Virus record (IMG/VR): IMGVR_UViG_3300045988_095739
Coordinates: 1 to 40,162 of that record
Length of the DNA stretch: 40,162 nt
Direction: 5' to 3' (one strand)
Source of the DNA: a virus
Part shown: positions 123 to 21,560 of the stretch, one piece after another
Layout of the letters: every line of letters starts with the position of its first letter
How positions within the stretch are numbered: the stretch's first letter is position 1
Notes under the pieces: model-generated
Told to the model about the DNA's origin: nothing
Databases searched by the model: none
The model's input: the letters and a program-made list of their open reading frames with translations, nothing else
Translations under genes and position numbers: made by a program

Positions 123-3100
123 TTACGTCGTAAACGTCGTACCATCCGCTCGTGTCACTGTAATATTCTGATTGTACGAACGCATCTTCTCATGAATCTT
201 AGTCAGTTCTTCTTCGCTCGGCGTGTAGTCACCGTCGACACCAAGTAGTTTATCAGCCGCTTCTATTTCTTCAGCAGTGATAACGCGAACATTCGGATCA
301 GACAGTTCCTTGCCGCTTTTATCTACAAACGCAATGTCGACGTCAACGATACCATTTTCGTCCGGTCTGCTCATGCCTTTAATTATATAATCCTGACCGC
401 GCCCAAGCAATATCTCTTTCTCATACGGATATTCAGAGCGCTCAAGCAATATGGCGTTTACATCAAGTCCATGATAACCTTGAGGCACTTTCACCCGCAA
501 CAAGTATTTATACGGGTCGCTTGCACCGAACGCAAAACTTCGTCCAACGATATTATCGCGACTCATCGATAAAAAGCCCTTGTCATTGAACGTATCACCA
601 ATGGCCAGTTGATTTTTCAAACCAAAACCGCGATAGAGTATAGTGTCATTACCGAGCGCAGACTTTGCAATCATCTTATCTAACCGTTTCACTGCCTCAG
701 TCGCATGCGAACTAATAGCAGTTCCGGTTCGGAGGTGTTCATTTATCTCCTTGTAGTAAATCCCCTGGTACATCAATAAGGCTTCAGTGTCGACTTTAGT
801 AACACCTTTCGCTAGTACGCCAGTATCAATCAGCTCCTGCTTGCGCGTTGTTTTGAGATGCTCTACCTTGTCAGCAAGCTCTTCGTTCTTCATGCCGGTG
901 ACTTCAGGTAGCTTATAATCGTCCGACATCTTACGTATCATCACCCATATACAACGGCAGTTGAAGTGCAATGGCGGCTGCCACTTCGTCGTTTTGCGCT
1001 CTTCGGGAGTGACAATACTTCCATCCAGCGCGCGGCAGGTCGAGCAGGTTTTGCCATCTAGTAATGCAGAGTATTCGTACAGGTCGCCATTCTTCTCAAT
1101 CGACGTAAACACGTCATTCCGGCCATTATTGATACCTCGCCCCACAATAGCGCTTGCTGTTGGCTTCAGTATGCTTGCCGCCCAGGCGAGCAATGCTAAT
1201 TCAAGCGCTTCTAGGAATATATCAGTCACAGTAGTTATTTCGTCCGCTAGGTGTGTTGGTTGCTTCAATCGCTGTTCGGCAATAATACTCCGTATATCAT
1301 CCTGCTGCTTCGTAATGACGAAGTCTGTCATTTCACGGATTGTAGCCATAGCTTCGCGGCTTGTAGCCGGTGCTGGCACGTTATGCTCGTCTGCCGCACC
1401 GTTCTTAGCGTAGTTGTAGGCGTTACGGATTGTTGAGTTAACGAGTTTAGCGTACTCAGTTGGCAATTCGACGACTATATCCTTTGCACTCTTTGTAGCC
1501 ATGTCGCCTGCTACTAGCTGCTTGAGGAAGTCCGTCATGATAGGTTCGGCGGCAGTTACGAAGTTATCCTCCAACGAATCCATCTTGGCATTGATATCTT
1601 CGAACTTTACGTTCTGTTCGGCAGGCGTGAGCGGTCTCCACCACTTCATTTCGGTGTCGCTTAGAAATTTACCGGCATTACTGCCAGAATCCTCCTTATC
1701 GTCGCCAGACTCTTTATCTCCGTAATTAATGCCCACAGAAGGCACGCGCATGCCGCCTATAGCCTCGCGCAGCGAGCGAACCCACTTCTGAACAGTCTCA
1801 GGGTCGTTTTTTACGTAGGCAAGCGTTACGTGCGGCGTGTATGTTCCAAAGGTGTTCACATGCGGCAATAGCCCGAGGCGTTCATGCGCTTCTGTCAGTC
1901 GACCATCATATACACGAGCGATAATCGGCACAGACTCCGCACCAGGTTCTACCGGGAACGAATCAATATCATCAAGCGCTACACTGTCGCAGCGCCACCC
2001 GCTCAAAACTGTATCGACTTCTGTTTTTATCGCGTTGCCATTCTGTAGTAAGCCGAACAACAATGATACATGAGGTTGTACCTCTGCTACCGCGCCCATC
2101 GTATGCCCGCCCGGCTTTGCTTGCACTAGGTCAGCTGCGCCATTCTCTACATGCCGTACGACATCAAACGGCTGCAGGTCTAACATAATACAGCCGAGTT
2201 TATCTTCGTCGACACCCAGGTTATCGTGTAGACCGGGAAAATCTCGCGCGCTGATTTCAGACAATTCCTTGCTGTCTTTCAATTTCTTTACATCCGCCTC
2301 ATCAATGTCAGCATTTTGCTCAGGTTTCTTTACATCTGCTTCACTATTCTCTTCGTTGTCAGCCGCAGCCTCCTCTTTCTTAGCTTCTTTCGCTTCGCGC
2401 TTCTCACGTTCCTTGCGAACCTGCTCTAGGTCGATATCAAGGCGGTTAGCAGCTTGCTCTTCAATACTCTTTATCATGTCGTCGCTAATGTGGTCTTTTT
2501 CTACAAGCTTCATGAATGCCTCCCACATTGTTTCGACAACATCGCTCGTGATATCGTCGTATCTAAACTCAGGGTAATGCGGCGTAGCGAAGTTCAAGTC
2601 GATTAAGTCGGCGATAATGAACTGATTGATATGCTCTTCGATTTTCGTCATGAATGCCTTAAGCGACATCATCATTGCATCTTTGAGGTTGTCGCTTAGC
2701 GCATACGAGCCGGTATTGCTTTTTCCTTGCGAGCTCATCAGCATAAACGTAGCCAGAAATGCACGAGCCATCTCAGAGTTCTGCCGTTCGATAGACTGGT
2801 GCGGGTCGCGACCATTCTGCGTAATCTCTTTCACGTCATAGCCATACGGTATTGAGGCAACAGAATTACGTTCGCCGAGTTTTGATAGTGCCCTGAGAAC
2901 CTTGCTTACGAGAGCGCCGCCCTTAACGCTCTCATCGCTTGCGAGTGCGTTGTCGCCTTTACGAATGAGCACTTTCGGTTTAATAGCGTCAGCCTGTAAT
3001 GCAATACTATCAAGGTATTCTAGCTTATGCTTCTTCTCATACGGACGCCGCAATGACCGCAGTGCACTTCGACCATACAAATAGTCGCGTGACTTGTTGT

Positions 3101-3677
3101 GCGTAAATAAGAATGTCTTATACGCCGGTAGAATCACATCAACCGTTCTCTCGCCATATCCCACGACTTGCCGTGCACCGCCATAGCCACCAGCCTCGTC
3201 GCGGATTAGCGTAATGCCAATACTATCGCGATGAGCAAGCTTCTTCAGTACATATTTACCGTTTTCGATTTTGTAGACTTTCTCCCACAACTGGAAACCA
3301 TCGACGATTGATAGCATAAGCTCGTCTTGAAATAGCGTGAATGGCGACTCCATACCGCCTTTGTATGGCGGTTCAAATAGGTTGGTACGGACAAAGTTCG
3401 CCTGCTCCTCGCTTGCATCATCCTTACTCGCGTCAATACGATAGGTAGCGGCGATAATCGGCAGCGTGAATACATTGAATAGCGCTTCGACTGTCGGGTC
3501 TCTGTCTACCATCTCGCGGTACTGCTTGATTGTCACCTTATCGCTGCGCAGCTCCTCATGTTCATAGCTACTGAATATAACTTCGCCGGCAACACCAACT
3601 TCACGCGACAATTCCTTGGTTGATTGTACGTTTTTATTCTTTATGCCAAATAACTTCATGTCTATGTTTCCAATCAA
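123..3677 (-). CDS. Portal protein fused to MuF-like head morphogenesis domain and C-terminal ADP-ribosyltransferase toxin domain (1184 aa); probable true start ATG at 3659
   Basis: The N-terminal ~420 aa is portal-like, consistent with the Mu-type head module. The central region carries the MuF/SPP1 gp7 signature LLDGKTCSTCRALDGS...PPLHFNCRCIWV. The C-terminal ~200 aa has the R-S-E ADP-ribosyltransferase motifs YRGFG, GFLSMS (STS-like) and EKEILL (ExE ARTT loop), resembling VIP2/iota-like toxins. The track ORF starts at TTG 3677; ATG at 3659 fits MKLFGIKNK. Confidence 0.8.
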   Translation of the reverse strand: MIGNIDMKLFGIKNKNVQSTKELSREVGVAGEVIFSSYEHEELRSDKVTIKQYREMVDRDPTVEALFNVFTLPIIAATYRIDASKDDASEEQANFVRTNLFEPPYKGGMESPFTLFQDELMLSIVDGFQLWEKVYKIENGKYVLKKLAHRDSIGITLIRDEAGGYGGARQVVGYGERTVDVILPAYKTFLFTHNKSRDYLYGRSALRSLRRPYEKKHKLEYLDSIALQADAIKPKVLIRKGDNALASDESVKGGALVSKVLRALSKLGERNSVASIPYGYDVKEITQNGRDPHQSIERQNSEMARAFLATFMLMSSQGKSNTGSYALSDNLKDAMMMSLKAFMTKIEEHINQFIIADLIDLNFATPHYPEFRYDDITSDVVETMWEAFMKLVEKDHISDDMIKSIEEQAANRLDIDLEQVRKEREKREAKEAKKEEAAADNEENSEADVKKPEQNADIDEADVKKLKDSKELSEISARDFPGLHDNLGVDEDKLGCIMLDLQPFDVVRHVENGAADLVQAKPGGHTMGAVAEVQPHVSLLFGLLQNGNAIKTEVDTVLSGWRCDSVALDDIDSFPVEPGAESVPIIARVYDGRLTEAHERLGLLPHVNTFGTYTPHVTLAYVKNDPETVQKWVRSLREAIGGMRVPSVGINYGDKESGDDKEDSGSNAGKFLSDTEMKWWRPLTPAEQNVKFEDINAKMDSLEDNFVTAAEPIMTDFLKQLVAGDMATKSAKDIVVELPTEYAKLVNSTIRNAYNYAKNGAADEHNVPAPATSREAMATIREMTDFVITKQQDDIRSIIAEQRLKQPTHLADEITTVTDIFLEALELALLAWAASILKPTASAIVGRGINNGRNDVFTSIEKNGDLYEYSALLDGKTCSTCRALDGSIVTPEERKTTKWQPPLHFNCRCIWVMIRKMSDDYKLPEVTGMKNEELADKVEHLKTTRKQELIDTGVLAKGVTKVDTEALLMYQGIYYKEINEHLRTGTAISSHATEAVKRLDKMIAKSALGNDTILYRGFGLKNQLAIGDTFNDKGFLSMSRDNIVGRSFAFGASDPYKYLLRVKVPQGYHGLDVNAILLERSEYPYEKEILLGRGQDYIIKGMSRPDENGIVDVDIAFVDKSGKELSDPNVRVITAEEIEAADKLLGVDGDYTPSEEELTKIHEKMRSYNQNITVTRADGTTFTT

Positions 3678-3717: not shown

Positions 3718-5259
3718 TTATAACACATAGTCATCGTACTCCTCGCCATCGTCGTTATCGTCAGAACCGATATCATCATACGAGCCGGCAAGTGCAATTT
3801 CTTCAGTAGAGGCGATTGCTCCATCGATGAGTAGCATGCGGATAGCATACACCATAGCGTCTACCATGTCGTCGTGGCTGCTATTCGGAAACTCCATCAG
3901 CTGGTCATAGAGGTCTTGCACGCCAGGCGCACCTTGTATGAAATGCACCCGACCACTTTCAAAGAACCGACTCACGGCAAGCAAACGGCGTGTTTTGTCT
4001 TTGTCTGGTTTTTGTGGGATAATAGGCAATCCTGCGAGCATGTCGCGGAATACAAGCTGCAAAGCACCAGCCTCAACGCCTACCGCGTTTGGATCGAATG
4101 TTTCGTAGAGCGTAGATATGTAATCGGCATTCTTCTGCGGCGATAAACGCTTATTGCTCACATGGTAGATGTACACGTCGCCTTGCACGCTTAGTTCGGC
4201 AATCACAATACCAGTCGGGTCGGCAGCCGAGCGTTCGCTTACCGCAGGGTCTACCGCCATTACTCGCGCCGATACGTATCGCTTATCGGGTCTTGCTTCC
4301 GCCCACTTTACCCAGCCTGGTTGGATAATCATGTCATCTTCATCAAGCGGTTTGTTCTGATACTCCTGAGCGAATGCGACCGAACCGATGTAGCCGTCGC
4401 ATTTCGGGTCGTCTCGCATGGCTTTCAGTCGCTCCAGACTCATATGCTCCGGCCAGAGAGCGTACTCGTTGCCATCATCATCCGTCATAATCGCCCGATA
4501 GAGCTTCGTGTTCCAGCTTGCGAACATCTCTCTATGCCTTAGTATGTTCTGCAGCAGTGAGTCGTGGTGTAGTACTGTACCGACCATAATAGCGCGTCCA
4601 TCGCGGCTTAGAGCCGGTAAGCACGCCTTAATTAGCCAATTCTTCAGCTTCTTGCGCTGTTCGGCCGTAGCAACACGTTCGTCATTCTCTAAATCGTCGA
4701 TAAGTAGCAGATCTGGCCGGTGCTCACGGTAGCGCAAGCCTCGTATCTTCATTCCAGCACCTTTAGCGACCCATTTAATGCCAGTAGCTGTCACAAATTC
4801 GCCATCACGCCACTCTTCGCTCATTAGATTGCCGTACAGCCATCGAACCTTGATGTTGTTCTCAAATTGGTCTTTCAGCGCATTCACGAACTCAATTGAT
4901 TGCGTCACAGTGTCTGAGATGATGACGCCGAAGTGGTGTTTCTCAGTCACTGTCGACCATAGCGCGTAAGTAAAGTCGATTGTCGTACTCTTAGCATGTC
5001 CGCGCGGTGCAGCGAATGCCAAATATTTATTTGACACGTCAGCGGCGGCAGATAGCATTTCACGGTGGAAGTTAGGTGTCTCTAGTGCGATATAATCATC
5101 GTTAATAAACCAGCCGAACAGATGGATGTTTGCGGGGCGTGCAAATACGGAACGTAGTATGCGGCGTAGTCTCGGCTTATTGCTTCGATATTTCTTACAT
5201 ACTCGCCGAATATCGTCCCGCGACAAATCATCCAAAGATGGCTTCGTCAAGCTCGGCAT
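3718..5259 (-). CDS. terL: Terminase large subunit
   Basis: 513 aa with Walker A AAPRGHAKST and Walker B LLLIDDLEND, then a nuclease-like C-terminus. It sits between TerS and the portal gene. Confidence 0.9.
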   Translation of the reverse strand: MPSLTKPSLDDLSRDDIRRVCKKYRSNKPRLRRILRSVFARPANIHLFGWFINDDYIALETPNFHREMLSAAADVSNKYLAFAAPRGHAKSTTIDFTYALWSTVTEKHHFGVIISDTVTQSIEFVNALKDQFENNIKVRWLYGNLMSEEWRDGEFVTATGIKWVAKGAGMKIRGLRYREHRPDLLLIDDLENDERVATAEQRKKLKNWLIKACLPALSRDGRAIMVGTVLHHDSLLQNILRHREMFASWNTKLYRAIMTDDDGNEYALWPEHMSLERLKAMRDDPKCDGYIGSVAFAQEYQNKPLDEDDMIIQPGWVKWAEARPDKRYVSARVMAVDPAVSERSAADPTGIVIAELSVQGDVYIYHVSNKRLSPQKNADYISTLYETFDPNAVGVEAGALQLVFRDMLAGLPIIPQKPDKDKTRRLLAVSRFFESGRVHFIQGAPGVQDLYDQLMEFPNSSHDDMVDAMVYAIRMLLIDGAIASTEEIALAGSYDDIGSDDNDDGEEYDDYVL

Positions 5260-5782
5260 CGGTTAGTTCCTTGTCTTCTTTGGCTTTCTTCAACTTCAGA
5301 TCACGCTCATCACGCCAGCCGCAAACATTCTTCATGGTGAATATTACAAAGCTCGCCGATGTTTTGCCGCTCAAACCAATTTCAACTAAAAACTCACGCT
5401 GTAATTCTTTCGCAATCTTATAGGATTCGGAAAACTCTTCATGCTTCTTTTTCCATTCATGCAAAGTATCTATGTTCACGCCTATCTTTCGTGCAAATCC
5501 TGCAAACCATGGCATCTTAGCTGGTAATCGCTCCAGCTTCACCTTTCCATCTACTTCAGCATCCTTAATAATCTCCATCGGATCAACGCTAAAGTAATCT
5601 ATAAGCTGCTGGCAATATTCCGGTCTATAGGCAGTTGGTCTACCTATTTTCTTTTTATTATGTTCAGGTTCTCCGTGTATAGCACCATTGTTTTTAATAG
5701 CAGTTCCCTGCTTCTGCTTCTGCTTCTGCTTCTGTAAGGATTTTCCTGATTTCTTTTTTGCTGCCATGGTATATTTCTCCAA
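5228..5782 (-). CDS. terS: Terminase small subunit (probable true start ATG at 5767, MAAKKK)
   Basis: Small basic protein directly upstream of and overlapping terL, with an N-terminal lysine/glutamine-rich DNA-binding-like region. RBS GGAGA lies 8 nt before ATG 5767; the track start at 5782 is TTG. Confidence 0.7.
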   Translation of the reverse strand: MEKYTMAAKKKSGKSLQKQKQKQKQGTAIKNNGAIHGEPEHNKKKIGRPTAYRPEYCQQLIDYFSVDPMEIIKDAEVDGKVKLERLPAKMPWFAGFARKIGVNIDTLHEWKKKHEEFSESYKIAKELQREFLVEIGLSGKTSASFVIFTMKNVCGWRDERDLKLKKAKEDKELTDAELDEAIFG

Positions 5783-5813
5783 AATAAAAATAGCCGCTTA
5801 TGTGGCTACGTTA
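5783..5813 (-). terminator. Conserved hairpin/T-run element, copy A (GTAGCCACataaGCGGCTATTTTTATTTTGG) immediately upstream of the terS RBS
   Basis: See the finding on the AAAAATAGCCRC element. Confidence 0.45.
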
Positions 5814-5897
5814 CTAGTGCTTATTATAGCATTGCGGTATTAAGGTTATACTGTGCAGGACGTAAAACCCATAGGGTACATTTTTGGCGGTTATGTA

Positions 5898-5966
5898 TTC
5901 TACGGGCATACTATTATGCGAGAAATACCCGTAGGAAGTGTTTGTGTAGATATACGTTCTACGGGT
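5898..5966. promoter_or_regulatory. Three copies of the CCCGTAGAA / TTCTACGGG half-site upstream of terS
   Basis: TTCTACGGG at 5898-5906, CCCGTAGGA at 5928-5936, and ACGTTCTACGGGT at 5954-5966. Confidence 0.5.
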
Positions 5967-6043
5967 AAAATAAAACCCGCCCCTATTGCTAGAGGCGAGA
6001 GAAAGTTCGCTTGATGACTAAACCAAGCAGATATAATTGTATG

Positions 6044-6247
6044 CTATTTGTCTTTGTTTTTCCACCGTTTGGCAGCACCAGCTCGTCCTCTTTCACGAGC
6101 AATGCGAGTACGCTCTTCGGCACTAATGTTTTCCCAAATCTTTTTACCTCCCCTTGATGTAGCTTCTTGTAGTTTTTTATATTTCTTCTCTATCTCCTTG
6201 AGCTTGTCGTATTCGGCTTTAGTAATTGTTATTGTTTCTTCGTCCAT
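6044..6247 (-). CDS. Hypothetical small basic protein (67 aa)
   Basis: Compact ORF in the operon between the ParB-like gene and the regulatory region upstream of terS. Lys/Arg-rich. Confidence 0.5.
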   Translation of the reverse strand: MDEETITITKAEYDKLKEIEKKYKKLQEATSRGGKKIWENISAEERTRIARERGRAGAAKRWKNKDK

Positions 6248-6249
6248 TC

Positions 6250-6750
6250 TTAATCCTCCTTGGCTTTACTAAATTCCCTGTTCTTAAATAGTGCCGCTAA
6301 TCCGCTAACCTGCTTGAGTCGTAGCAATTCGTCTGCGTCCATGCCGATGTTCTTCATAATCCAGGCGTCACTCATACCACTATCGACCAATTCAGCCACG
6401 ATGTTAGTCATCAGTTCGATGGAATGGCTGCCTCTTGCTCGGTTATGCCGAATAGTCGATGCCATACGCTGTTCAATCGGTTTGTCTATCACGACGACGG
6501 GTAATTTGCCATTTTCGCGTTCAAAAATATCCTTGTGCGTTTTCATGATGGTGTAGCGATGATAGCCGTCGACGATTTCATAATTTTCGTTGTCAAGCTT
6601 ATAACAGACTATCGGCATTGTATAGCCGTCCTCCAGGATAGATTTATAGAGCAGTTTCATTTCCGGCGGGGCTACGGCGTTTGGATTGTAGGCGTTAGCA
6701 TGAATCTGTTCAATCGGCACGGCACGCACGGTATAAACTGGTGATTTCAT
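6250..6750 (-). CDS. ParB-like nuclease domain protein
   Basis: The IVDGYHR motif and surrounding pattern are typical of the ParB N-terminal (ParB/Srx) fold. It is translationally coupled to the upstream PAPS-reductase-like gene. Confidence 0.8.
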   Translation of the reverse strand: MKSPVYTVRAVPIEQIHANAYNPNAVAPPEMKLLYKSILEDGYTMPIVCYKLDNENYEIVDGYHRYTIMKTHKDIFERENGKLPVVVIDKPIEQRMASTIRHNRARGSHSIELMTNIVAELVDSGMSDAWIMKNIGMDADELLRLKQVSGLAALFKNREFSKAKED

Positions 6751-8039
6751 TATAGTATCTCCTTATATTTTTTGATTGCGTTCTTACGCTTTTCCATTTC
6801 GTATTTTGTTTGTGAAAAACCCATATATTTACAGAAGTGGTCGTTCTTCATAATACAAATACACATGCGTTTATAGGTTGGTATTTCGCGAAATTCTGAA
6901 ATATCAATATCGTCAAGGTAATCCATGCGTACCGGCAGCTTGTCGGTTTTGTAGTTTGTCTTGTCGCCAACGGCAATGTTGATGCCGCGCTCTTTAAGCT
7001 TATCGACTGTGTCGCTTCCCAGCACACCACCGCGTTCTTTCCAGAACTTTATACTCGTATCCAATTTAGCCTGATAGCGAGCACGTACATCTGTCGGCAA
7101 CGTGCTAAGCAGGAACTTGCAATAGCTTTTCCAAGTGTGCCCCTTAGGTAGCGTAATCGACTTCCATCCCATAGCGGTCGTGCCGCCGTATATTCCAGTG
7201 AAGTTGACGCCGTTGACTCGCGATACGAGCTTGCCCCATGTATGAGGCTCAATTACACGATAGAGCTTCAGACTATCCTGCGCCGCATCGTTGAATGGGC
7301 TCGCCACACGCATTGCGTCAAGCGGTACACCAGCCTGATGGTAGAGGTCATAAAGTTTGTTGTACGAATAGCCAAATTTAGCGTTGGCCGTCCAAATATC
7401 TTCAGTAATCCAGTCGTAAATCGGATAAAAATTAAATACATCACTTGCCATCTGCTTCGAATACTGCCGACCCATGAATGTACGGTAATTTCTGTCAGAA
7501 TGAATAGCGCGCCATCGATTGAGACTTTCCTGCGTGCGAATACCGACCAGGCATGCTGTATGTCTCGCATTGCGCTGTTTATGTAACCACACGCCAAATT
7601 TATCTTGAAAAGCATAGTCCCACATATTGCCGTTCCAGAAATCGAATTGATGATTATCGATATTTATACTGTCTTTCGGCAATTCTCGCGTCCAAATACC
7701 ACGCTCCGTGACATTCCACGGCTTCCAGTGGTCTTGAAACATCGAGGTCGAGCACTGTGCCTTAATCGGCATGCAAATATGGTAGAACCTCACTCCGGTC
7801 GGTAAACTATGTTTTACTTCCTCTACGTAGTCGGTTGTCATCTGATATTGCGCCTCGTAGTCAATGTGCATAACTGATACATCAGTTAACCGTTCAGTTT
7901 TCTCTGCGTAATCCAACGTCAGGTTTAGTAGTACGCCGCTATCCTTGCCTCCACTGAATGACACGCAAATATTGTCGAAGTGGTCGAATATAAATCGTAA
8001 GCGCTTTTGAGACACCTCATAAACATTCATAACGTCCAT
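6750..8039 (-). CDS. PAPS reductase-like (PP-loop ATP pyrophosphatase) family protein with C-terminal extension (DUF3440-like)
   Basis: The N-terminal SFSGGKDS P-loop is typical of phosphoadenosine phosphosulfate reductase / PP-loop enzymes. 429 aa. Paired with the ParB-like gene as in IbrA/IbrB-like and Dnd-like modules. Confidence 0.8.
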   Translation of the reverse strand: MDVMNVYEVSQKRLRFIFDHFDNICVSFSGGKDSGVLLNLTLDYAEKTERLTDVSVMHIDYEAQYQMTTDYVEEVKHSLPTGVRFYHICMPIKAQCSTSMFQDHWKPWNVTERGIWTRELPKDSINIDNHQFDFWNGNMWDYAFQDKFGVWLHKQRNARHTACLVGIRTQESLNRWRAIHSDRNYRTFMGRQYSKQMASDVFNFYPIYDWITEDIWTANAKFGYSYNKLYDLYHQAGVPLDAMRVASPFNDAAQDSLKLYRVIEPHTWGKLVSRVNGVNFTGIYGGTTAMGWKSITLPKGHTWKSYCKFLLSTLPTDVRARYQAKLDTSIKFWKERGGVLGSDTVDKLKERGINIAVGDKTNYKTDKLPVRMDYLDDIDISEFREIPTYKRMCICIMKNDHFCKYMGFSQTKYEMEKRKNAIKKYKEIL

Positions 8040-9258
8040 CCTTTATGCATTTAATGATATTATCAAGCGTTCTCTCTTTTTTGTCGAGACTCGAACGAAT
8101 AATACGTTCCAGCCCGACGTCGACGAAGAAGTCGTAAATTTCCACATTTTTCGTCTGTCCGGTGCGGTAGATTCGGTGCATTGCCTGAATTTTGTCTTTA
8201 TAGTCGAATGTTTGCGTTAGAAATGCCATGCGGTGACAGAACTGCAGGTTCAAGCCAAACGCACCCGTCCCGTATGTGCATATCAGGACCTGGTACCTAC
8301 CGGCTTCGAAGTCGGCTAGATTAGCTTTATGCCGGCCGGAATATTCAGCCGCATTCGGTAGCATTTCCAGTAGGCGGTCAACTTCATCCAAATATTTCAC
8401 GAATATTATTAACTGCTCATCGCCAACAATATCCATCAGCTTGCGGTATTTGTCGTCGCACACTGTATAGGTATGCTGTAGTTTTTGGGTAATCTCCAAG
8501 AAATTGATAAACAATCCTCGCAGACTTTCGTCTTTCGCTAATCGGTAATTATCATGTTCCTGTTCGTTCATCTGACACTCGATGTCCGTAGTGCACATTT
8601 CGACTGGAATATCCAGGTCGGCATCAAAGATATATGGGCGAATCATCTCAATCAGTGCCGCTTCGTTAGCCGGCTTACTCCAACGTCGCCACGCCCGATA
8701 ACCATCTTTGTAATATTCCATGAAATAGTTGGCAAACTGCGCTTCGGTCATGTTGAGGATGTTTGGGCTAATGAAATTTATCTGTGGCAACAGGTCAAGA
8801 ATACTACGCGTTGTTGGTGTTCCATTAAGTATTAAACGAAAGTCGAAGTGATCGTAGTACCCGATTAGTCGTTTTGTTCGTTTAGCGTCTAAATTCTTAA
8901 TCTTTATACTCTCATCGACAATACAGAAACTGCGCGCACTATCAGCTAGGTTCAACATATCCATAAACTTCTCATCGGACATTGATATACTTTCGACAGA
9001 GAATGTCCGCACGTTTGGCATGAAATCGCACCATTTCGCCATTTCGCTTCGGTAATTCTGATCGTTAAGCAGGCTCGCTGGTGCGATCCAAATGATAACA
9101 TCGTTCTCGCGGTTGATCCTCTGACTAATCCAGTCCATGGCAACCTTAGTTTTGCCAGTGCCCATTTTCATGAACAGTGCACCGGCACGCAATCGCGACA
9201 ACTTATCAACAGCGCTCGCTTGGATCAAATCTAACCTCATCGATTGGTTGTTGATCAT
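8017..9258 (-). CDS. SNF2-family helicase (DEAD-like N-lobe plus helicase C domain)
   Basis: Motif I MGTGKT, motif II IVDESIKIKN, motif III LNGTPTT, and motif VI HRIYRTGQTKNVEIY. Confidence 0.85.
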   Translation of the reverse strand: MINNQSMRLDLIQASAVDKLSRLRAGALFMKMGTGKTKVAMDWISQRINRENDVIIWIAPASLLNDQNYRSEMAKWCDFMPNVRTFSVESISMSDEKFMDMLNLADSARSFCIVDESIKIKNLDAKRTKRLIGYYDHFDFRLILNGTPTTRSILDLLPQINFISPNILNMTEAQFANYFMEYYKDGYRAWRRWSKPANEAALIEMIRPYIFDADLDIPVEMCTTDIECQMNEQEHDNYRLAKDESLRGLFINFLEITQKLQHTYTVCDDKYRKLMDIVGDEQLIIFVKYLDEVDRLLEMLPNAAEYSGRHKANLADFEAGRYQVLICTYGTGAFGLNLQFCHRMAFLTQTFDYKDKIQAMHRIYRTGQTKNVEIYDFFVDVGLERIIRSSLDKKERTLDNIIKCIKDGRYECL

Positions 9259-9571
9259 ACACTACCTCTAATTTTGGTGGAATGTGGCGGTAGAAGTACT
9301 CTAGCAAACCTTTTTCGTCGACTAGATTACGCCGTACCGCCATCACCCGTTCATTTCTAATGCGATACCCACCTTTGGGCAACCAACACTCTTTCGACCC
9401 GATGAGGAATAAGGTTGCCCGTGGTGTTTCGTGGATAATGTCCTCGTATTTAACGTACGCCCAATAATCACTCGAAGTATTTGGCGAACTCATCGGCAGA
9501 CATTTCCCACTCATCAATTTTTTCAAATTTATTATACTTGCCCTTGCCGTTCTTAAACAGTTTGAATACAA
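9206..9571 (-). CDS. Hypothetical protein; N-terminal boundary uncertain (likely starts at ATG 9493 or is frameshift-continuous with the upstream 91-aa ORF)
   Basis: A protein-like open frame fills the gap between the 91-aa ORF and the SNF2 gene. The first ~34 codons overlap the better-looking 3' end of the 91-aa ORF in another frame. Confidence 0.4.
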   Translation of the reverse strand: MYSNCLRTARASIINLKKLMSGKCLPMSSPNTSSDYWAYVKYEDIIHETPRATLFLIGSKECWLPKGGYRIRNERVMAVRRNLVDEKGLLEYFYRHIPPKLEVVYDQQPIDEVRFDPSERC

Positions 9572-9743
9572 AATCGTCAGTAAAGCTAATGCTCATGTGG
9601 TAGTCGTTCTTGCCGGACGTCCGTACTAATTTAGCTGGATGCCAGAACAACCAGTTCGATCCAGGCAGCTTGATTAAAACTGCCTTGCCGGTTTCAGTTT
9701 GGATAAGGTTACTATTAGCTGATACATTACGCCAGGTTGTCAC
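9468..9743 (-). CDS. Hypothetical protein (91 aa), GTG start
   Basis: RBS GGGAG lies 10 nt upstream of GTG. It is the first gene downstream of the strong minus-strand promoter at 9963-9991. Confidence 0.5.
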   Translation of the reverse strand: MTTWRNVSANSNLIQTETGKAVLIKLPGSNWLFWHPAKLVRTSGKNDYHMSISFTDDFVFKLFKNGKGKYNKFEKIDEWEMSADEFAKYFE

Positions 9744-9962
9744 AATTGTTATGCTCCCATAATTTATCGGCGGCTGTAGTGATGAGGAAGTTTATCTTAG
9801 ATATTAATTATTATCGACCAATTTTCGTATTTCTCCGTTTGAGTATTTCAATTTTAACGGTTATCTTTAATCTTGCAATTTGTATAGTTGCTTTAGTCAT
9901 TTGTTGAACTTTCTGCCGCCGAATTTTTAACTTTCTAGTGAAATCTCCTCATCACTGTTTCT

Positions 9963-9991
9963 ATTCTAGCAAGCTAGCTCGCTATTGTCAA
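9963..9991 (-). promoter_or_regulatory. Sigma70-type promoter TTGACA-17nt-TAGAAT on minus strand
   Basis: Reverse complement of 9961-9991 reads TTGACAatagcgagctagcttgcTAGAAT. It lies in a 340-nt AT-rich non-coding gap. Confidence 0.6.
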
Positions 9992-10083
9992 CACTTTTGC
10001 AAAGATTTTAGGGGCGAATTATTCCGCCCCGTTCTTCTGCTTCCGTTTCCGCCGCTGTTTCTTGCGCAGCGCTTTCTTTGTCA

Positions 10084-10554
10084 TTAAAACACCTCATCAT
10101 TGCTTAGATTCACTAATCGCAGTGACGGTAATCGTGCCTCAATGAAATCACGAGCTTCGTCGAACCCGCGGCAGACGATCGCCTCAATGCCGGCGTCGTT
10201 TAGCGTTTTAATCCACTGTTTTTGTTCCGGCGAGACTCGTCCGCCTTTTTTACGCTTTAGCTCGATGGCGACAAGACGAGAAGTGAATATAGACTTTTTA
10301 TCATCACTACCTTTAGCAGTCTTCCTTATGTCATATCGAACCCAGCTGGTTGGAATAGCCACAAAATAGTCTGGAACGCCCTTTGCTTGTCCCATGCGCT
10401 TCATTTTGGCAGTTCTAAGCATTGCGGTGCGTCCGCGACCTGATTCGTTTGCTACATGGAAGAATGGCAACTTCTTCAGGCGTAACCATTGCGCGAGCGC
10501 CTCAGACTCCATATCTTCAGTTGGGTTGTCATAGCTACTCAGATTTGGCATCAT
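10084..10554 (-). CDS. VRR-NUC domain nuclease (PD-(D/E)xK)
   Basis: VPDYFV...IELKRKKGGRVSPEQKQWI matches the VRR-NUC core. The track ORF extends to 10659, but the N-terminal 35 codons look non-protein-like and overlap the upstream gene. ATG ATG at 10554 is the likely start. Confidence 0.7.
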   Translation of the reverse strand: MMPNLSSYDNPTEDMESEALAQWLRLKKLPFFHVANESGRGRTAMLRTAKMKRMGQAKGVPDYFVAIPTSWVRYDIRKTAKGSDDKKSIFTSRLVAIELKRKKGGRVSPEQKQWIKTLNDAGIEAIVCRGFDEARDFIEARLPSLRLVNLSNDEVF

Positions 10555-10837
10555 CGCTACTTTCTTTATTATCGTTCTTTTCTGGCAGGTAAGCTCGTAG
10601 CATTTTTGCTGCGCCAACAACCACCGCCAGCTCGCTTTCAATCTCACAGTTAGCTTCATCTGCTATCTTTACCAGTTCCTCAATCACGCCACGTGGAATG
10701 GCGATAGTATCGCCACTCGCACTAGTATTCTTAGGTTTATTACTATGAAATAATGCAAGTTTGTTGATTGTTTCGCCATCAAGTTTTGCTGTTTCATTTT
10801 GATTGTCGATCTCGTCTACAAGTTCTTTGTCAATCAT
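10535..10837 (-). CDS. Hypothetical acidic protein (100 aa)
   Basis: Strong RBS AAAGGAGGAGATAATA before ATG. It sits immediately downstream of the palindromic operator-like site. Confidence 0.6.
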   Translation of the reverse strand: MIDKELVDEIDNQNETAKLDGETINKLALFHSNKPKNTSASGDTIAIPRGVIEELVKIADEANCEIESELAVVVGAAKMLRAYLPEKNDNKESSDDAKSE

Positions 10838-10859
10838 TATTATCTCCTCCTTTGTTCTG

Positions 10860-10898
10860 CCCGTAGAACGTTTTATCTAAAAAAACACGTTCTACGGG
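10860..10898. promoter_or_regulatory. Perfect 11-bp inverted repeat CCCGTAGAACG-N17-CGTTCTACGGG (operator-like)
   Basis: It sits directly upstream of the RBS of the 10535-10837 gene and overlaps a -35-like TTGAAC. The same half-site recurs upstream of terS. Confidence 0.55.
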
Positions 10899-11209
10899 TT
10901 CAACCGCATAACTGGTTGGCTATATAAGATGATGATTTGCCGAGAGGCTGCAATCCTTCACGCGTTAGCAATAATGCTACTGTAGCGCCGTTTCAGTACT
11001 CGTATAGTCACATCACAACTGCGCAACTGACTTTACTATTTTACATTCTGCGCTTTTTTGTTTTCATGCCAGTGGTCGTATCAAAATACGAGGCTTGGCC
11101 TAAACTGTCAGTTAATCGTTACCAATTCCGTCACTTGTCGAAAATGGTTTTCTACAGGGTATAATTTGTACCTGGTTGAGCAGTTTAACGACTTGCTCAG
11201 GTCAAGGCT

Positions 11210-12769: not shown

Positions 12770-12955
12770 TTATTTTGATTGTTCTTTCGCGGTAAGCTTG
12801 CCGAGATGCGCCCAGGCACTCGTCGAATGGTTGAATAACTTGCTTTCTTTCAGCCATCCGCCGGCGAAAGCCTTGCGGCATACGTACCACTTACCGTCTT
12901 TGTTTTTCTTAATGGTGCGCACGGTCGTAAGCGACCTACGAAATACACTCTTCAT
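12770..12955 (-). CDS. Hypothetical small basic protein (61 aa)
   Basis: Open frame directly downstream of the 321-aa gene. Confidence 0.4.
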   Translation of the reverse strand: MKSVFRRSLTTVRTIKKNKDGKWYVCRKAFAGGWLKESKLFNHSTSAWAHLGKLTAKEQSK

Positions 12956-13901
12956 TGCTTTTTATCTCCAAGGGCTTTTTGCTTTTTACCAAGTAATGGT
13001 TGCCCGTCTCACTACTCAGATAGTTATCATTTACGATATCTAGGAACTTATTCGCATCTTTCGTGTCGAACAAAATGATATTGCCTTTGTCGTCTGTCAT
13101 TAACTCAATGGCCATATTGTCGGCGATATCGAGGACAGTCTCCTGGCTCGGCAGACTCTCAGTGTTAACTTCGAGCAGGCGCTTTAGTGTCGACTTGCTT
13201 TCGCGCGCCATTACGGCGAAATCATTAAACATATTCGGTAGTATCAAGCTATACCGATTACTAATTGCCTCGCCTATTTCATCAGACGTGCGAATATCCT
13301 GAATGTTATAGTCGAATGCTTTCGCGAACTTTGACTGGTCGAATATGAATATTTCGCCGCCAACTATCAGCATTTGATTATCCATCGGCATATTAACTGT
13401 CACGTCAGCTAAGTGAGACTCTGCATTGCCACCATCAAAATCCCACACATGACCCACAGAAATCGACGCAGACGGTGGTAAATACTTCGCGACGTAGAAC
13501 GATACGTTTTTATCGTCCGGATGCGTGTAGTGCGCTACAATTCCTTTCATGCGCTTGAATTCATGGTTGTGCGTCGAAAATTCAAAGATACCGGCACGAT
13601 CCTCTTCAATTTGCCGAACCAGATATCTCACGCGATCGACATCGCTGAGAGGCAGATACGGTAATTGCTTAGAGTCTCGTTTATCGTAATCAACCAGGTT
13701 GACGACATTCACGCCAATCGCCGCATCAGTCTGTATCTCGTTGATTATTCCATACAGGAACATCATCGGTAGTTCAATCTCTAATGCGGGCGATACGCGT
13801 AAACTATATAGCACAGCGTTCTTATTGAAGAGAAACAGTTCGCACTGCAGCCCTTTTTTCATGCTGTCCGCTTGGTTCGCCCATAAGAATATATCTGTCA
13901 T
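12936..13901 (-). CDS. Hypothetical protein (321 aa), accessory/possible defence or anti-defence
   Basis: Long ORF with no recognisable catalytic motif. It is translationally coupled to a 40-aa single-TM peptide gene upstream. Confidence 0.6.
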   Translation of the reverse strand: MTDIFLWANQADSMKKGLQCELFLFNKNAVLYSLRVSPALEIELPMMFLYGIINEIQTDAAIGVNVVNLVDYDKRDSKQLPYLPLSDVDRVRYLVRQIEEDRAGIFEFSTHNHEFKRMKGIVAHYTHPDDKNVSFYVAKYLPPSASISVGHVWDFDGGNAESHLADVTVNMPMDNQMLIVGGEIFIFDQSKFAKAFDYNIQDIRTSDEIGEAISNRYSLILPNMFNDFAVMARESKSTLKRLLEVNTESLPSQETVLDIADNMAIELMTDDKGNIILFDTKDANKFLDIVNDNYLSSETGNHYLVKSKKPLEIKSNEECIS

Positions 13902-18917: not shown

Positions 18918-18993
18918 TGGAGCCACGACCGAGGTTTGAACTCGGGACCTACGCCTTACCATGGCGTCGCTCTACCAGCTGAGCTATCGCGGC
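18918..18993 (-). tRNA. tRNA-Thr (anticodon GGT), 76 nt with encoded CCA
   Basis: Reverse complement folds as a cloverleaf: acceptor GCCGCGA/TCGTGGC, D-arm GCTCagctggtaGAGC, anticodon stem ACGCC/GGCGT with loop ATGGTAA, T-arm CCGAGttcaaacCTCGG, then T-CCA. Confidence 0.85.
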
Positions 18994-19274: not shown

Positions 19275-20135
19275 TTATACGCCCGTTGGTGTTTTGAATT
19301 TGTCGTACATCTCTACCAGTCTGCAATCATCTAGCCCGTGCAGATATTTTTCGGTAGTAGCCATGCTTGAATGTCTCATTAACCTCTGTGCTACGTCTAT
19401 CGGTGCTCTATTGACTTGCAGCTCTGTACCAAACGAATGACGGAGCGAGTGCGGATAAAAGCCGTCCAGTCCCGCCTTGTCAAAAGCTCTTTTCATTCGA
19501 TACCTCAGCTCGTCTACGCTGTACGGTCTACCGTCGTTGTATTTGGGCGACGGCCATAGGTAGTCGTTGATTTTTTGCGAGTCAATCCAGCAATCGAGTT
19601 TATCGCGCGTTTCTTGCGACATAAACAGCCGTCCAGCCTTACGACCTTTTCCGATAATGTTCATTTCTCGATCGCTAACATTGCTTAGTCGCAGATTTCG
19701 GAGCTCACTGATTCGCAGGCCAGAATCAAAAGCTAACGATATCAACAGCCACGAAAGCTCATCGGCGTAGTTCTTTGCACGGCCTATCTCCTTGCGAGTA
19801 AAAAACTTGCGACGTGGAGGATCCTCTTCTAGCCGATAGACTCGATTCAGGTTGATAGGGACACTATACCCCTCCTCTTTGAGCCATCGACAAAGACTGA
19901 TGACATGGTTTACTCTGGTATTTACAGTTCTAGCTGCAACCGTCCCAGAGCACAACAGCGACTTCTGCCAGGACTTGAACACTTCGCTAGTGAACTCCCG
20001 CATGTCTTCGATTGCGACCTGTCTAGCAAACTGATTTAATACCGCCCGCTTACTAGACAACGTTTGCCTTGTCATGTTTCGGTTGTATTTGCAGAAATCC
20101 AAATAAGCTTCTATCTGCGAATGAATTGTTTCCAT
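19275..20135 (-). CDS. int: Tyrosine recombinase / phage integrase (XerC/D-like)
   Basis: N-terminal SAM-like domain. Catalytic R...HSLRHSFGT...RLMRHSSMATTEKYLH with the Tyr nucleophile. Confidence 0.9.
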   Translation of the reverse strand: METIHSQIEAYLDFCKYNRNMTRQTLSSKRAVLNQFARQVAIEDMREFTSEVFKSWQKSLLCSGTVAARTVNTRVNHVISLCRWLKEEGYSVPINLNRVYRLEEDPPRRKFFTRKEIGRAKNYADELSWLLISLAFDSGLRISELRNLRLSNVSDREMNIIGKGRKAGRLFMSQETRDKLDCWIDSQKINDYLWPSPKYNDGRPYSVDELRYRMKRAFDKAGLDGFYPHSLRHSFGTELQVNRAPIDVAQRLMRHSSMATTEKYLHGLDDCRLVEMYDKFKTPTGV

Positions 20136-21441: not shown

Positions 21442-21451
21442 TTGATTACTC

Positions 21452-21560
21452 AACCTATACCGACACCGCCGCAACCTGCGGCGCAGTAAAATGGATTAAG
21501 ACGTGGGGCATGAGTAATACTGGCTGGACTGTCTTGTACGGCGATACGGGGTGGCGAGAT
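21452..21560. repeat. Left copy of a 109-bp inverted repeat (core 78 bp with one mismatch) shared with the tail-fibre gene
   Basis: 21483-21560 against the reverse complement of 22602-22679 shows 77/78 identity. The flanking 31 bp have 6 mismatches. Confidence 0.8.

What the first reader, a model, noticed from the sequence alone, without database searches (positions are those of the whole stretch)
5898..10898. Operator-like CCCGTAGAACG motif at two distant control regions
A perfect palindrome CCCGTAGAACG-N17-CGTTCTACGGG (10860-10898) sits on the promoter/RBS region of the 10535-10837 gene. Three copies of the same half-site occur 5 kb away in the 260-nt gap upstream of terS: TTCTACGGG at 5898, CCCGTAGGA at 5928, ACGTTCTACGGGT at 5954. 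This is the signature of a single sequence-specific regulator, either a repressor or a late activator, controlling both an early operon and the packaging/late operon. The regulator itself is not identified; the 102-aa winged-helix protein (20480-20788) and the 67-aa basic protein (6044-6247) are candidates.
Basis: seen in the sequence. Interest (0 to 1): 0.55.

Follow-up and report, generated by a model that had tools for sequence, protein, structure and literature searches.

The report
Portable palindrome shared by phage and host
The repeated CCCGTAGAACG motif is real, but it belongs to a 38-39-bp palindrome family that Saccharibacteria (TM7) chromosomes and their phages share at gene-module boundaries, so it is probably not the private operator of a regulator encoded by this phage.

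Summary
All five CCCGTAG 7-mers in the window lie in these two gaps.

- The same palindrome has invariant CCCGTAGA/TCTACGGG ends and a co-varying, self-complementary interior. It occurs in about 10 other phage lineages.
- It also occurs in Saccharibacteria/Patescibacteria chromosomes. There it straddles the -35 box of the promoter of a widespread two-gene cassette (GHKL ATPase plus STAS-like DUF4325) and flanks that cassette.
- More distant phage relatives have the same terS leader without any PAL.
- In other relatives the PAL pair lies between convergent operons, and the gene downstream of the PAL-1 equivalent differs.
- Homology breakpoints fall at PAL edges, and the central loop is flipped between close relatives.
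- The 67-aa protein has only five known homologues. Nothing links it or the 102-aa protein to the motif.

Best reading: a portable promoter/stem-loop-type boundary element, analogous to the PeSLs of T4-type phages. It brackets a 4.9-kb accessory module. Any binding factor is more likely host-supplied and remains unidentified.

The parts
10860..10898 (.). PAL-1: 39-bp palindrome CCCGTAGAACG-N17-CGTTCTACGGG. It ends 22 nt upstream of the ATG of the 100-aa gene and about 6 nt before its Shine-Dalgarno sequence.
   Evidence: As single-stranded DNA it folds at -13.6 kcal/mol, z = -6.4. It is conserved in L001 and L004 and homologous to PALs in L013, L016, L018, L020, L026 and L032-L036.
5928..5965 (.). 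PAL-2: 38-bp imperfect palindrome CCCGTAGGAAG-N16-CGTTCTACGGG. Its loop TGTTTGTGTAGATATA is a diverged copy of the PAL-1 loop. It starts 1 nt after the T-run of the early terminator.
   Evidence: The half-sites are invariant while the spacers mutate in L002, L004 and L005. It is a weak hairpin, -6.3/-8.2 kcal/mol.
5868..5906 (.). PAL-3: 39-bp second-type palindrome; on the - strand it reads CCCGTAGAATACAT...ATGTACCCTATGGG.
   Evidence: The relatives carry the consensus CCCTACGGG. The same arm type occurs in L007, L021, L045 and L068. It is a very weak hairpin here.
5966..5999 (-). Intrinsic terminator of the early/middle operon: stem 5999-5976 followed by a T-run.
   Evidence: The 'terminator + PAL' unit is homologous in L016/L107, L021 and L127.
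5823..5831 (-). Late promoter candidate TGcTATAAT (extended -10 box) with a poor -35 box.
   Evidence: Read directly. The same TGnTATAAT lies at the equivalent place in L006, L007, L069, L071 and L072.
5780..5809 (-). Terminator-like leader hairpin plus T-run, immediately before the terS ribosome-binding site.
   Evidence: An equivalent hairpin plus T-run is present in all relatives examined.
5228..5782 (-). terS (small terminase subunit, GP3_package type).
6044..6247 (-). 67-aa protein with an invariant arginine-rich C-terminus (ERTRIARERGRAGAAKRWKNK). Its 3' end belongs to the conserved 'gene end-terminator-PAL-PAL' DNA block.
6044..10837 (-). The 4.9-kb accessory module bracketed by PAL-1 and PAL-2/3. 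It encodes the 100-aa protein, a VRR-NUC-like nuclease, an SNF2 helicase, a PAPS-reductase/DUF3440 (IbrA-like) protein, a ParB-like (IbrB-like) protein and the 67-aa protein.
   Evidence: The module is absent from L007, L069 and L071. In L016, different genes lie between the equivalent PALs.
10899..11017 (.). Conserved non-coding block abutting PAL-1; it begins TTCAACCGCATAACTGGTTGGCTATATAAG. In relatives it is paired with a distal inverted copy that encloses 200-400 variable nt.
   Evidence: No Rfam match.
11150..11158 (-). Solitary variant half-site CCCTGTAGA. On the + strand it is followed directly by TATAAT.
   Evidence: Full palindromes with the variant core CCCTGTAT occur in L071 and L035.

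Best explanation
The three palindromes are copies of a portable 38-39-bp boundary element ("PAL") of the Saccharibacteria/Patescibacteria mobile gene pool. PAL is a composite promoter/stem-loop-type cassette, analogous to the PeSLs (promoter-early stem-loops) of T4-type phages.

In host chromosomes PAL is the promoter region of a widely transferred two-gene cassette (SpoIIAB-like GHKL ATPase plus STAS-like DUF4325). The dyad is centred on the -35 box TTGACA, the 3' arm fills the spacer, and a -10 box and a leaderless ATG follow. PAL copies also flank that cassette.

This phage carries three copies that lack recognisable promoter boxes. They bracket a 4.9-kb accessory module. Two of them are inserted between the early terminator and the late promoter; relatives without them have the same late leader.

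Shown by comparison:
- PALs are the points where modules are joined, swapped, inserted or inverted.
- The PAL loop itself flips between close relatives.
- The interior of the element stays self-complementary.

Inferred:
- The invariant CCCGTAGA/TCTACGGG ends, 31-32 bp (three helical turns) apart, are read by a DNA-binding factor. That factor is supplied by the host or by the mobile gene pool, not by a regulator specific to this phage.
- Any effect on phage transcription is therefore an accessory layer, such as an insulator or roadblock after the early terminator and before the accessory module. It is not the core early/late switch.
For: - Family membership and host. Pattern scans recovered homologous PALs in about 10 other phage lineages. 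They also hit about 22 Candidatus Saccharibacteria/Patescibacteria genomes, one locus per genome, and 55 metagenome contigs.
- Host architecture. In more than 30 loci the PAL lies 12-15 nt before the ATG of the ATPase gene, with TTGACA-like in the loop and TAAAAT/TATTAT after the 3' arm.
- Cassette mobility. The ATPase has 2949 homologues that are 63-73% identical across CPR (Candidate Phyla Radiation) phyla. L068 differs from L045 by a clean 1313-bp insertion flanked by a 67-bp direct repeat that contains the PAL. L057 and L088 carry flanking copies; L041, L059, L075 and L106 carry tandem copies.
- Phage junctions. Homology between the window and L032, L020, L034, L021 and L018 breaks at the PAL edge. 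The loop is inverted relative to the same flank in the window versus L032, L016, L035 and L036.
- No tie to terS. The PAL-2/3 unit is not upstream of terS in L016 and L021. No PAL lies in the terS-upstream gap of L006, L007 or L069-L072, although the late leader is conserved.
- Sequence pattern. Positions 1-7 are invariant and positions 9-13 co-vary: 64 cells changed on both sides against 35.2 +/- 4.1 in shuffles, reached by 0 of 500 shuffles. All 56 distinct PALs but one are 38-39 nt long, although perfect stems range from 7 to 17 bp.
- Published analogue: PeSLs, described in PMC2839356 and PMC4122927.
Against: - No binding protein has been identified. The cassette ATPase models as a SpoIIAB/Topo VI-B-like GHKL domain with no visible DNA-binding fold.
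- The window copies have no usable -35/-10 boxes, so 'promoter cassette' describes the family, not these copies.
- The stem-loop lacks a U-tract, so unlike PeSLs it is not a canonical terminator.
- The length constancy is partly imposed by my search patterns, which allowed only 37-40 nt.
- Arm covariation and breakpoints at PAL edges would also arise if the PAL were a true site-specific recombination site.
- A variant core (CCCTGTAT) at the equivalent position in L071 and L035 looks like a specificity variant, as expected for element-encoded binder/site pairs.
- Many compared loci are close relatives, so the counts are not independent events.
Confidence: 0.45

Rival explanations
1. A single regulator encoded by this phage (a repressor or a late activator) binds the palindromes as operators and co-ordinately controls the 10.8-kb operon and the packaging/late operon.
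For: The half-sites are conserved while the spacers mutate in close relatives. PAL-2/3 lie 40-140 bp upstream of an extended -10 late promoter with a poor -35 box, a geometry compatible with an activator. A variant core at the same position in L071 resembles the operator-specificity variants of phage immunity groups. The 67-aa gene, terminator and PALs travel together in the window lineage and in L016.
Against: The same palindrome sits in host chromosomes of several CPR phyla at a cassette that carries no phage genes. Relatives keep the late leader without PALs. In L016 and L021 the PAL pair is not upstream of terS. The gene downstream of the PAL-1 equivalent varies. No gene is shared by all PAL-bearing loci. 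The 67-aa family has 5 members. No DNA-binding family hit was found for the small proteins.
Confidence: 0.15
2. The PAL is a true site-specific recombination site used as folded hairpin or cruciform DNA, like an integron attC or a REP/REPIN. A recombinase acting in trans cuts at the conserved stem base. Cassettes move between PALs in host chromosomes and phages.
For: - The ends are conserved, the interior is variable but self-complementary, and positions 8-9 are prone to mismatch.
- L045 and L068 form an empty-versus-occupied site pair with a duplicated PAL.
- Copies flank the cassette or sit in tandem.
- Loops flip and modules invert.
- There is one locus per host genome.
- The phage encodes a tyrosine recombinase at 19275-20135. 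Homologues lie within a few kb of PALs in L052, L060, L061 and L124.
- The ends contain GTAG/CTAC, like the heads of REP elements (my own knowledge).
Against: No recombinase or HUH (His-hydrophobic-His) enzyme is consistently adjacent. The duplicated segment in L068 and L088 extends 20-25 nt beyond the PAL, which fits homologous recombination better. The stems (7-17 bp) are too short for two recombinase monomers. The length is near-constant, unlike attC. The -35 box sits in the loop in every diverged host copy, which points to a promoter role. The phage recombinase has a more obvious job next to an invertible tail-fibre segment. The phage's own RecT/exonuclease pair could recombine 39-bp homologies.
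Confidence: 0.2
3. The palindromes act as RNA hairpins in the phage transcripts, for processing, stability, translation control or N/nut-like antitermination. The arginine-rich 67-aa protein might be the partner.
For: The stem co-varies. PAL-1, the host copy after DUF4325 and the L021 hairpin all sit immediately 5' of a Shine-Dalgarno sequence. Some mismatches are G.U on the sense strand (PAL-3; L007). The C-terminus of the 67-aa protein resembles an arginine-rich motif.
Against: The loop is flipped relative to the flank and to the downstream gene between close relatives. PAL-2 and PAL-3 lie downstream of a strong intrinsic terminator and upstream of the late promoter. At the host ATPase promoter the transcription start would fall downstream of the PAL. 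PAL-2 and PAL-3 are weak hairpins. There is no Rfam match. The 67-aa family is tiny.
Confidence: 0.1
4. In this phage the copies have no function. They are decaying relics left by past recombination or hitch-hiking of the host cassette's promoter element.
For: PAL-2 and PAL-3 have degenerate arms and weak folding. None of the three has promoter boxes. Related phages do without them.
Against: PAL-1 is a perfect 11/12-bp palindrome conserved in L001 and L004. The half-site cores of PAL-2 and PAL-3 are kept while the spacers change in L002, L004 and L005, and one core differs only by a change towards or away from the consensus. The 'terminator + type-1 PAL + type-2 PAL' unit is retained in that order in diverged phages.
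Confidence: 0.1

Closest known systems
PeSLs (promoter-early stem-loops) of T4-type phages (Arbiol et al. 2010, PMC2839356; Comeau et al. 2014, PMC4122927)
   Same: Both are small conserved intergenic cassettes that combine a sigma-70-type promoter with a stem-loop. Both flank variable, non-essential genes. Insertion, deletion and replacement breakpoints between close relatives fall at them. Direct copies flanking one or two genes could pop out as circles.
   Different: In PAL the promoter is built into the stem-loop (-35 box in the loop, 3' arm in the spacer) rather than lying beside it. The stem-loop has no U-tract, so terminator activity is doubtful. The outer 8 bp are invariant across phyla. 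The element is shared between host chromosomes and phages of Patescibacteria. The three copies in this window lack promoter boxes. Mini-circles and promoter or terminator activity were not tested here.
Classical phage operators (lambda OL/OR type) and stoperator-like dispersed repressor sites
   Same: A repeated, sequence-specific, dyad-symmetric motif in non-coding DNA at operon boundaries. Both half-sites change in parallel in a variant (L071).
   Different: The half-sites are 31-32 bp apart with a self-complementary interior. No adjacent repressor gene exists. The copies do not overlap recognisable promoters in the phage. The motif is present in host chromosomes and absent from related phages with the same late leader.
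Integron attC sites and REP/REPIN elements (DNA sites that act when folded)
   Same: Imperfect palindromes with conserved ends and a variable but complementary interior. They lie at cassette boundaries. An empty and an occupied site were observed. The ends contain GTAG/CTAC, as in REP heads.
   Different: There are no RYYYAAC/GTTRRRY boxes, no integron integrase or RAYT (REP-associated tyrosine transposase) nearby, a near-fixed and much shorter length, only one locus per genome, and an embedded promoter.
pdif modules (Xer-site-flanked modules in Acinetobacter plasmids; from my own knowledge)
   Same: Small gene modules flanked by short palindromic sites, found in different contexts and in both orientations.
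   Different: PAL does not have the 11-6-11 dif architecture. The cores are 25 bp apart. No Xer link was shown.

Membership tests
Phage repressor/operator (immunity) system | Operators overlap the regulated promoters and lie next to the repressor gene | tested here: not met
   No sigma-70-like promoter overlaps any PAL. The neighbouring genes have no repressor-type or other DNA-binding-regulator hit.
Phage repressor/operator (immunity) system | The operator sequence is specific to the phage or its immunity group | tested here: not met
   The same palindrome occurs in about 22 Patescibacteria genomes at a non-phage cassette.
Late-gene activator sites upstream of terS (RinA/ArpU/Ltr type) | The activator gene lies directly upstream of terS, and its site is conserved upstream of terS in relatives | tested here: not met
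   The upstream genes are a ParB-like gene and a 67-aa orphan. L006, L007 and L069-L072 have no PAL in the terS-upstream gap.
N/nut-type antitermination RNA hairpins | The hairpin is transcribed downstream of a promoter and upstream of terminators, and its loop sequence is strand-specific | tested here: not met
   PAL-2 and PAL-3 follow the terminator and precede the promoter. The loop is flipped between relatives.
Intrinsic terminator | A GC-rich stem followed by a U-tract | tested here: not met
   The terminator scan does not call any PAL, and the flanks lack T-runs.
PeSL-type mobile regulatory cassette | A conserved intergenic composite of a sigma-70 promoter and a stem-loop | tested here: inconclusive
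   Met in host copies: TTGACA in the loop and TAAAAT after the arm. The window copies have the stem-loop but no promoter boxes.
PeSL-type mobile regulatory cassette | It flanks variable genes, and indel or replacement breakpoints between relatives coincide with it | tested here: met
PeSL-type mobile regulatory cassette | Measured promoter and terminator activity; mini-circle formation | not testable with these tools
   This needs reporter assays and PCR on infected cells.
Integron attC | R''/R' core sites RYYYAAC/GTTRRRY, variable length of 57-141 nt, and an IntI integrase | tested here: not met
   The cores are CCCGTAGA/TCTACGGG and the length is 37-39 nt. No integrase is consistently adjacent.
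REP/REPIN-RAYT | Tens to hundreds of copies per genome, with an associated RAYT gene | tested here: not met
   There is one locus per genome in the whole-genome scan. The RAYT gene was not searched for.
Xer/dif or pdif site | Two 11-bp arms around a 6-8-bp central region | tested here: not met
   The conserved cores are separated by 22-25 bp, and the loop ranges from 5 to 17 nt.

The most novel reading that the evidence does not exclude
PAL is the recognition site of a previously undescribed cassette-exchange system that works on folded DNA (hairpin or cruciform). Under this reading it shuttles small gene modules, such as the GHKL-ATPase/DUF4325 pair and phage accessory modules, between chromosomes and phages across the Candidate Phyla Radiation. 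The promoter built into the loop would express whatever lands next to it. This phage's PAL-bracketed 4.9-kb SNF2/IbrA/IbrB-like module and its empty PAL-2/PAL-3 tandem would then be a cargo slot.
Probability: 0.15. Interest if true: 0.8.

Novelty: new variant of a known kind. Interest (0 to 1): 0.5.

Why it matters
Almost nothing is known about cis-regulatory or recombination signals in Saccharibacteria/CPR bacteria and their phages. This element is a concrete 39-bp sequence with invariant ends. It is shared by a cassette that has spread across CPR phyla and by several phage lineages.

It offers three things:
- A host-assignment marker for these phages.
- A defined bait for finding the protein that reads it.
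- A testable explanation for how modules are swapped in these mosaic genomes.

For annotating this phage, it means the motif should not be taken as evidence of a phage-encoded early/late master regulator. The conserved extended -10 promoter plus leader hairpin in front of terS is the better candidate for late control.

Tried and rejected
- ParB-like protein (6250-6750) as the binder: rejected. L006 has ParB without the motif, and L007 has the motif without ParB.
- 67-aa protein as a general binder: rejected. It has 5 homologues, no similarity to the ATPase C-terminal basic helix and no PDB relative.
- 102-aa protein: hits only O-like replication-initiator N-termini, has one viral relative and no PDB relative.
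- A gene shared by all PAL-bearing phage loci: none found. The top cluster was an artefact in which a fusion protein chained two families together.
- Cassette-encoded DNA-binding protein: the AlphaFold2 model of the ATPase (pLDDT 78.5) matches only SpoIIAB/Topo VI-B GHKL domains. The ATPase matches only HATPase_c-type (GHKL) Pfam domains (below the curated cut-off) and, in PADLOC, a DrmA N-terminal segment; the second protein matches Pfam DUF4325 only.
- Known RNA families: none in the window or in L001.
- Intrinsic terminator or sigma-70 promoter at the PALs: not called.
- attP/prophage-end idea: L127 holds the 'terminator + PAL' next to host ruvB, but no tRNA or other RNA gene is there. Not resolved.
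- LexA/SOS box of Patescibacteria: the key paper is not held. The geometry (half-sites three turns apart) does not resemble any LexA box I know.
- CIRCE, NrdR, sigma-B and ECF-sigma promoter readings: considered by eye and rejected on sequence or spacing.
- Megablast of the region against GenBank phages: no match.
- Literature search for the motif: only irrelevant miR-100 hits.

Full report
**1. Observation**

The sequence is as described.
- CCCGTAGAACG-N17-CGTTCTACGGG lies at 10860-10898.
- TTCTACGGG is at 5898, CCCGTAGGA at 5928 and ACGTTCTACGGGT at 5954.
- Nearly all genes are on the - strand. The 10.8-kb palindrome therefore lies 22 nt upstream of the ATG (10837) of a 100-aa gene. The other copies lie in the 261-nt gap between a 67-aa gene (6044-6247) and terS (5228-5782).

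The 7-mer CCCGTAG occurs five times in the window, counting both strands. All five lie in these two gaps. The 9-mer with up to 1 mismatch is enriched: 19 hits against 9.1 expected, reached by 0 of 100 shuffles.

It reads CCCTACGGG in close relatives. The terS gap therefore holds two full palindromes: PAL-2 at 5928-5965 and PAL-3 at 5868-5906. Both have the geometry of PAL-1 at 10860-10898, with core starts 31-32 nt apart.

**2. Local anatomy, read on the - strand**

After the 67-aa gene comes a canonical terminator (5999-5976 plus a T-run). PAL-2 follows immediately, then PAL-3. Next is an extended -10 promoter, TGcTATAAT (5831-5823), with no good -35 box. A weak terminator-like hairpin (5809-5790) precedes the terS ribosome-binding site.

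PAL-1 sits at the downstream end of a 370-nt non-coding gap (10838-11209). It lies directly before the Shine-Dalgarno sequence of the 100-aa gene. No sigma-70-like promoter and no terminator is called on any PAL.

PAL-1 is a strong hairpin as single-stranded DNA (-13.6 kcal/mol, z = -6.4). PAL-2 and PAL-3 are weak.

**3. Close relatives**

- L001 and L004 keep PAL-1. L002, L004 and L005 keep PAL-2 and PAL-3.
- In these relatives the substitutions fall in the loops and spacers, while the half-site cores stay fixed.
- Loop length varies by one base: N16 against N17.

**4. The motif is not needed for the terS leader**

- L006 (terS 69% identical), L007 (72%) and L069-L072 (52-65%) all have the same leader: an upstream terminator, TGTTATAAT, a hairpin with a T-run, an RBS and then terS. 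None has a PAL in that gap.
- In those phages the terminator runs straight into the promoter. PAL-2 and PAL-3 (about 170 nt in all) are therefore an insertion in the window lineage.
- L007 has one PAL of the PAL-3 arm type elsewhere, after a YopX gene.
- In L016/L107 and L021 the unit 'terminator, type-1 PAL, type-2 PAL' lies between convergent operons, far from terS.

**5. A wide family**

A scan of viral contigs for CCCGTAGA-N21-24-TCTACGGG returned 29 loci. About ten are phage lineages with homologous PALs; the high-GC hits look like chance.
- The type-1 PAL even shares the loop TGTTTTTT(T)AGATAAAA.
- Relative to the same conserved flank (window + strand 10899 onward), the loop is inverted in L032, L016, L035 and L036 compared with the window.
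- The gene downstream of the PAL differs: the 100-aa gene in the window, other genes in L020, L032 and L034, and a cytosine methylase in L085.
- Homology with the window starts or stops exactly at the PAL edge in L021, L018, L020 and L032.
- At the equivalent position L071 has a variant palindrome with both arms changed (CCCTGTAT...ATACAGGG). L021 has only a short unrelated hairpin there.

**6. Host chromosomes**

About 22 are in Candidatus Saccharibacteria or other Patescibacteria assemblies, one locus per assembly. The terS homologues in Nanosynbacter genomes point the same way. Together these assign the phage to Saccharibacteria.

- In these loci the PAL lies 12-15 nt upstream of a 320-aa gene (HATPase_c_2 family). 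A 99-aa DUF4325 (STAS-like) gene follows.
- The dyad is centred on a TTGACA-like hexamer in the loop. The 3' arm fills a 17-18-nt spacer. TAAAAT or TATTAT follows the arm, and the ATG comes 6-11 nt later. This is a leaderless sigma-70 promoter built into the palindrome. It is seen in Saccharibacteria, Microgenomates and other lineages.
- A second PAL usually follows the DUF4325 stop codon, or two PALs sit in tandem.
- L068 differs from L045 by a clean 1313-bp insertion of the two genes, flanked by a 67-bp direct repeat that includes the PAL.
- The ATPase has 2949 homologues at 63-73% identity across CPR phyla, which suggests a horizontally spread cassette.
- Its AlphaFold2 model (pLDDT 78.5) matches the anti-sigma kinase SpoIIAB and Topo VI-B GHKL domains. 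No DNA-binding fold is apparent.
- None of the fetched phage loci carries the cassette.

**7. Sequence pattern of the family**

Fifty-six distinct PALs were analysed.
- Positions 1-7 are invariant. Position 8 is A-T in 82%. Position 9 is a G.T/A.C mismatch in about half.
- Positions 10-12 switch between CG/TA, GC/AT and TA/CG while staying paired (86-98% Watson-Crick).
- On 37 distinct arm sets, 64 cells have changes on both sides against 35.2 +/- 4.1 in shuffles, reached by 0 of 500 shuffles. All slid registers score far lower.
- Perfect stems range from 7 to 17 bp, yet total length is 38 or 39 nt in 55 of 56 PALs. The caveat is that my search patterns allowed only 37-40 nt. Secondary copies found with a looser scan were also 38-39 nt.

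The invariant ends argue for a sequence-reading protein. The near-fixed spacing of about three helical turns suggests duplex DNA. The self-complementary interior and the flipped loops show that intrastrand pairing happens, at least during replication or recombination.

**8. Candidate regulators**

- The ParB-like protein does not co-occur with the motif.
- The 67-aa protein has five homologues in the 5.8-billion-protein collection. They share an invariant arginine-rich C-terminus and have variable N-termini.
- That C-terminal coding region is part of the conserved DNA block 'gene end, terminator, PAL, PAL'. L127 carries the terminator plus PAL without the gene.
- The 102-aa protein resembles the N-terminus of O-type replication initiators. 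Only one other viral contig encodes a close relative.
- No gene is common to all PAL-bearing loci. That test is weak, because the loci are only partial genomes.

**9. Interpretation**

The evidence best fits a portable boundary element of the promoter/stem-loop kind. The closest published analogue is the PeSL of T4-type phages. PeSLs are small sigma-70 promoter plus stem-loop cassettes that flank variable genes. They mediate insertions, deletions and replacements by recombination and can form mini-circles (PMC2839356, PMC4122927).

In this phage the three PALs bracket the 4.9-kb accessory module (100-aa protein, VRR-NUC, SNF2 helicase, IbrA-like PAPS reductase, IbrB-like ParB, 67-aa protein). 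Relatives lack that module or have other genes in its place. The phage's own RecT/exonuclease pair could recombine such short homologies; that step is inference.

Whether a protein binds the invariant ends, and which protein, is not shown. Because the element travels with a host cassette across phyla, I infer that any binder is supplied by the host or the mobile gene pool, not by this phage.

**10. Rivals**

Four rival readings remain, each rated in its own section:
- a phage-encoded operator system;
- a true hairpin recombination site of the attC/REPIN type;
- RNA hairpins;
- decaying relics.

**11. Novelty and score**

I found no description of this motif. The kind of element, conserved palindromic regulatory or junction cassettes in mosaic phage genomes, is known. 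The architecture is a new variant: the -35 box sits in the loop, the ends are invariant across phyla, and host cassette and phages share the element. I rate interest as moderate (0.5).

Noticed in passing
window 21449-21560 and 22602-22713; ORFs 21510-21920 (+), 20991-21311 (+), 22212-23570 (-); recombinase 19275-20135 (-): 112-nt inverted repeats (94% complementary) enclose 1041 nt. Inversion would swap the C-terminal 145 residues of the 452-aa tail fibre for the oppositely oriented 136-aa alternative (32% identical, with the same [17 protein letters not shown] junction). This looks like a host-range switch of the Mu G-segment type, but with a small tyrosine recombinase nearby instead of a serine invertase.
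   Followed up: partly
window 5780-5831 (- strand) and the equivalent regions in L006, L007, L069, L071, L072: The late leader is conserved across the phage family: upstream terminator, extended -10 TGnTATAAT with no -35 box, a short hairpin with a T-run, then the RBS and terS. A promoter-proximal terminator in front of the packaging genes suggests antitermination-type late control. No antiterminator was identified.
   Followed up: partly
window 10899-11209; L001 8300-8776; L004, L016, L032, L035: A 370-nt non-coding gap holds a highly conserved block (10899-11017). In relatives the block's first 28 nt (TTCAACCGCATAACTGGTTGGCTATATAAG) recur as a perfect inverted copy 130-390 nt away, enclosing variable sequence with further CCAGTTGA-type repeats. 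It could be a structured RNA, an origin-like region or a MITE-like insert. There is no Rfam match.
   Followed up: partly
window 6250-9258: A ParB-like gene (PF02195), a PAPS-reductase/DUF3440 gene (an IbrA/IbrB-like pair) and an SNF2 helicase sit together just upstream of the packaging genes. L006 has an acetyltransferase inserted in the same set. This may be a DNA-modification or anti-defence module.
   Followed up: no
window 12936-13901: The phage encodes a KwaB-like protein (Pfam PF16162, E = 2e-7; PADLOC KwaB, E = 5e-5). KwaB is a component of the bacterial Kiwa defence system.
   Followed up: no
window 18918-18993: A tRNA-Thr (GGT) gene on the - strand lies about 280 nt downstream of the tyrosine recombinase gene. 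It could be an attP-associated tRNA or a phage tRNA.
   Followed up: no
L057 2009-3267 and more than 30 other loci: A two-gene cassette (a 320-aa SpoIIAB-like GHKL ATPase whose N-terminus hits the PADLOC DrmA model, plus a 99-aa DUF4325 STAS-like protein) is 63-73% identical across CPR phyla. It has 2949 homologues and a leaderless promoter. Its function is unknown; it may be a partner-switching or defence module.
   Followed up: partly
L127 6980-7104: A copy of the window's 'early terminator + PAL' segment (84% identical to window 5950-6053) lies about 500 nt from a host ruvB gene. In L069 the prophage genes begin about 500 nt after ruvB. This may be a prophage junction or a remnant.
   Followed up: partly
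window 6044-6115 (- strand); P0243-P0245: The last 22 residues of the 67-aa protein (ERTRIARERGRAGAAKRWKNK) are invariant across homologues whose N-terminal halves are unrelated. The conserved arginine-rich tail has no known function.
   Followed up: partly
window 123-3677: A 1184-aa ORF follows terL. The corresponding proteins in relatives combine Portal_Mu, Phage_Mu_F and an ADP-ribosyltransferase toxin domain (Pfam annotations). The window protein itself was not scanned.
   Followed up: no
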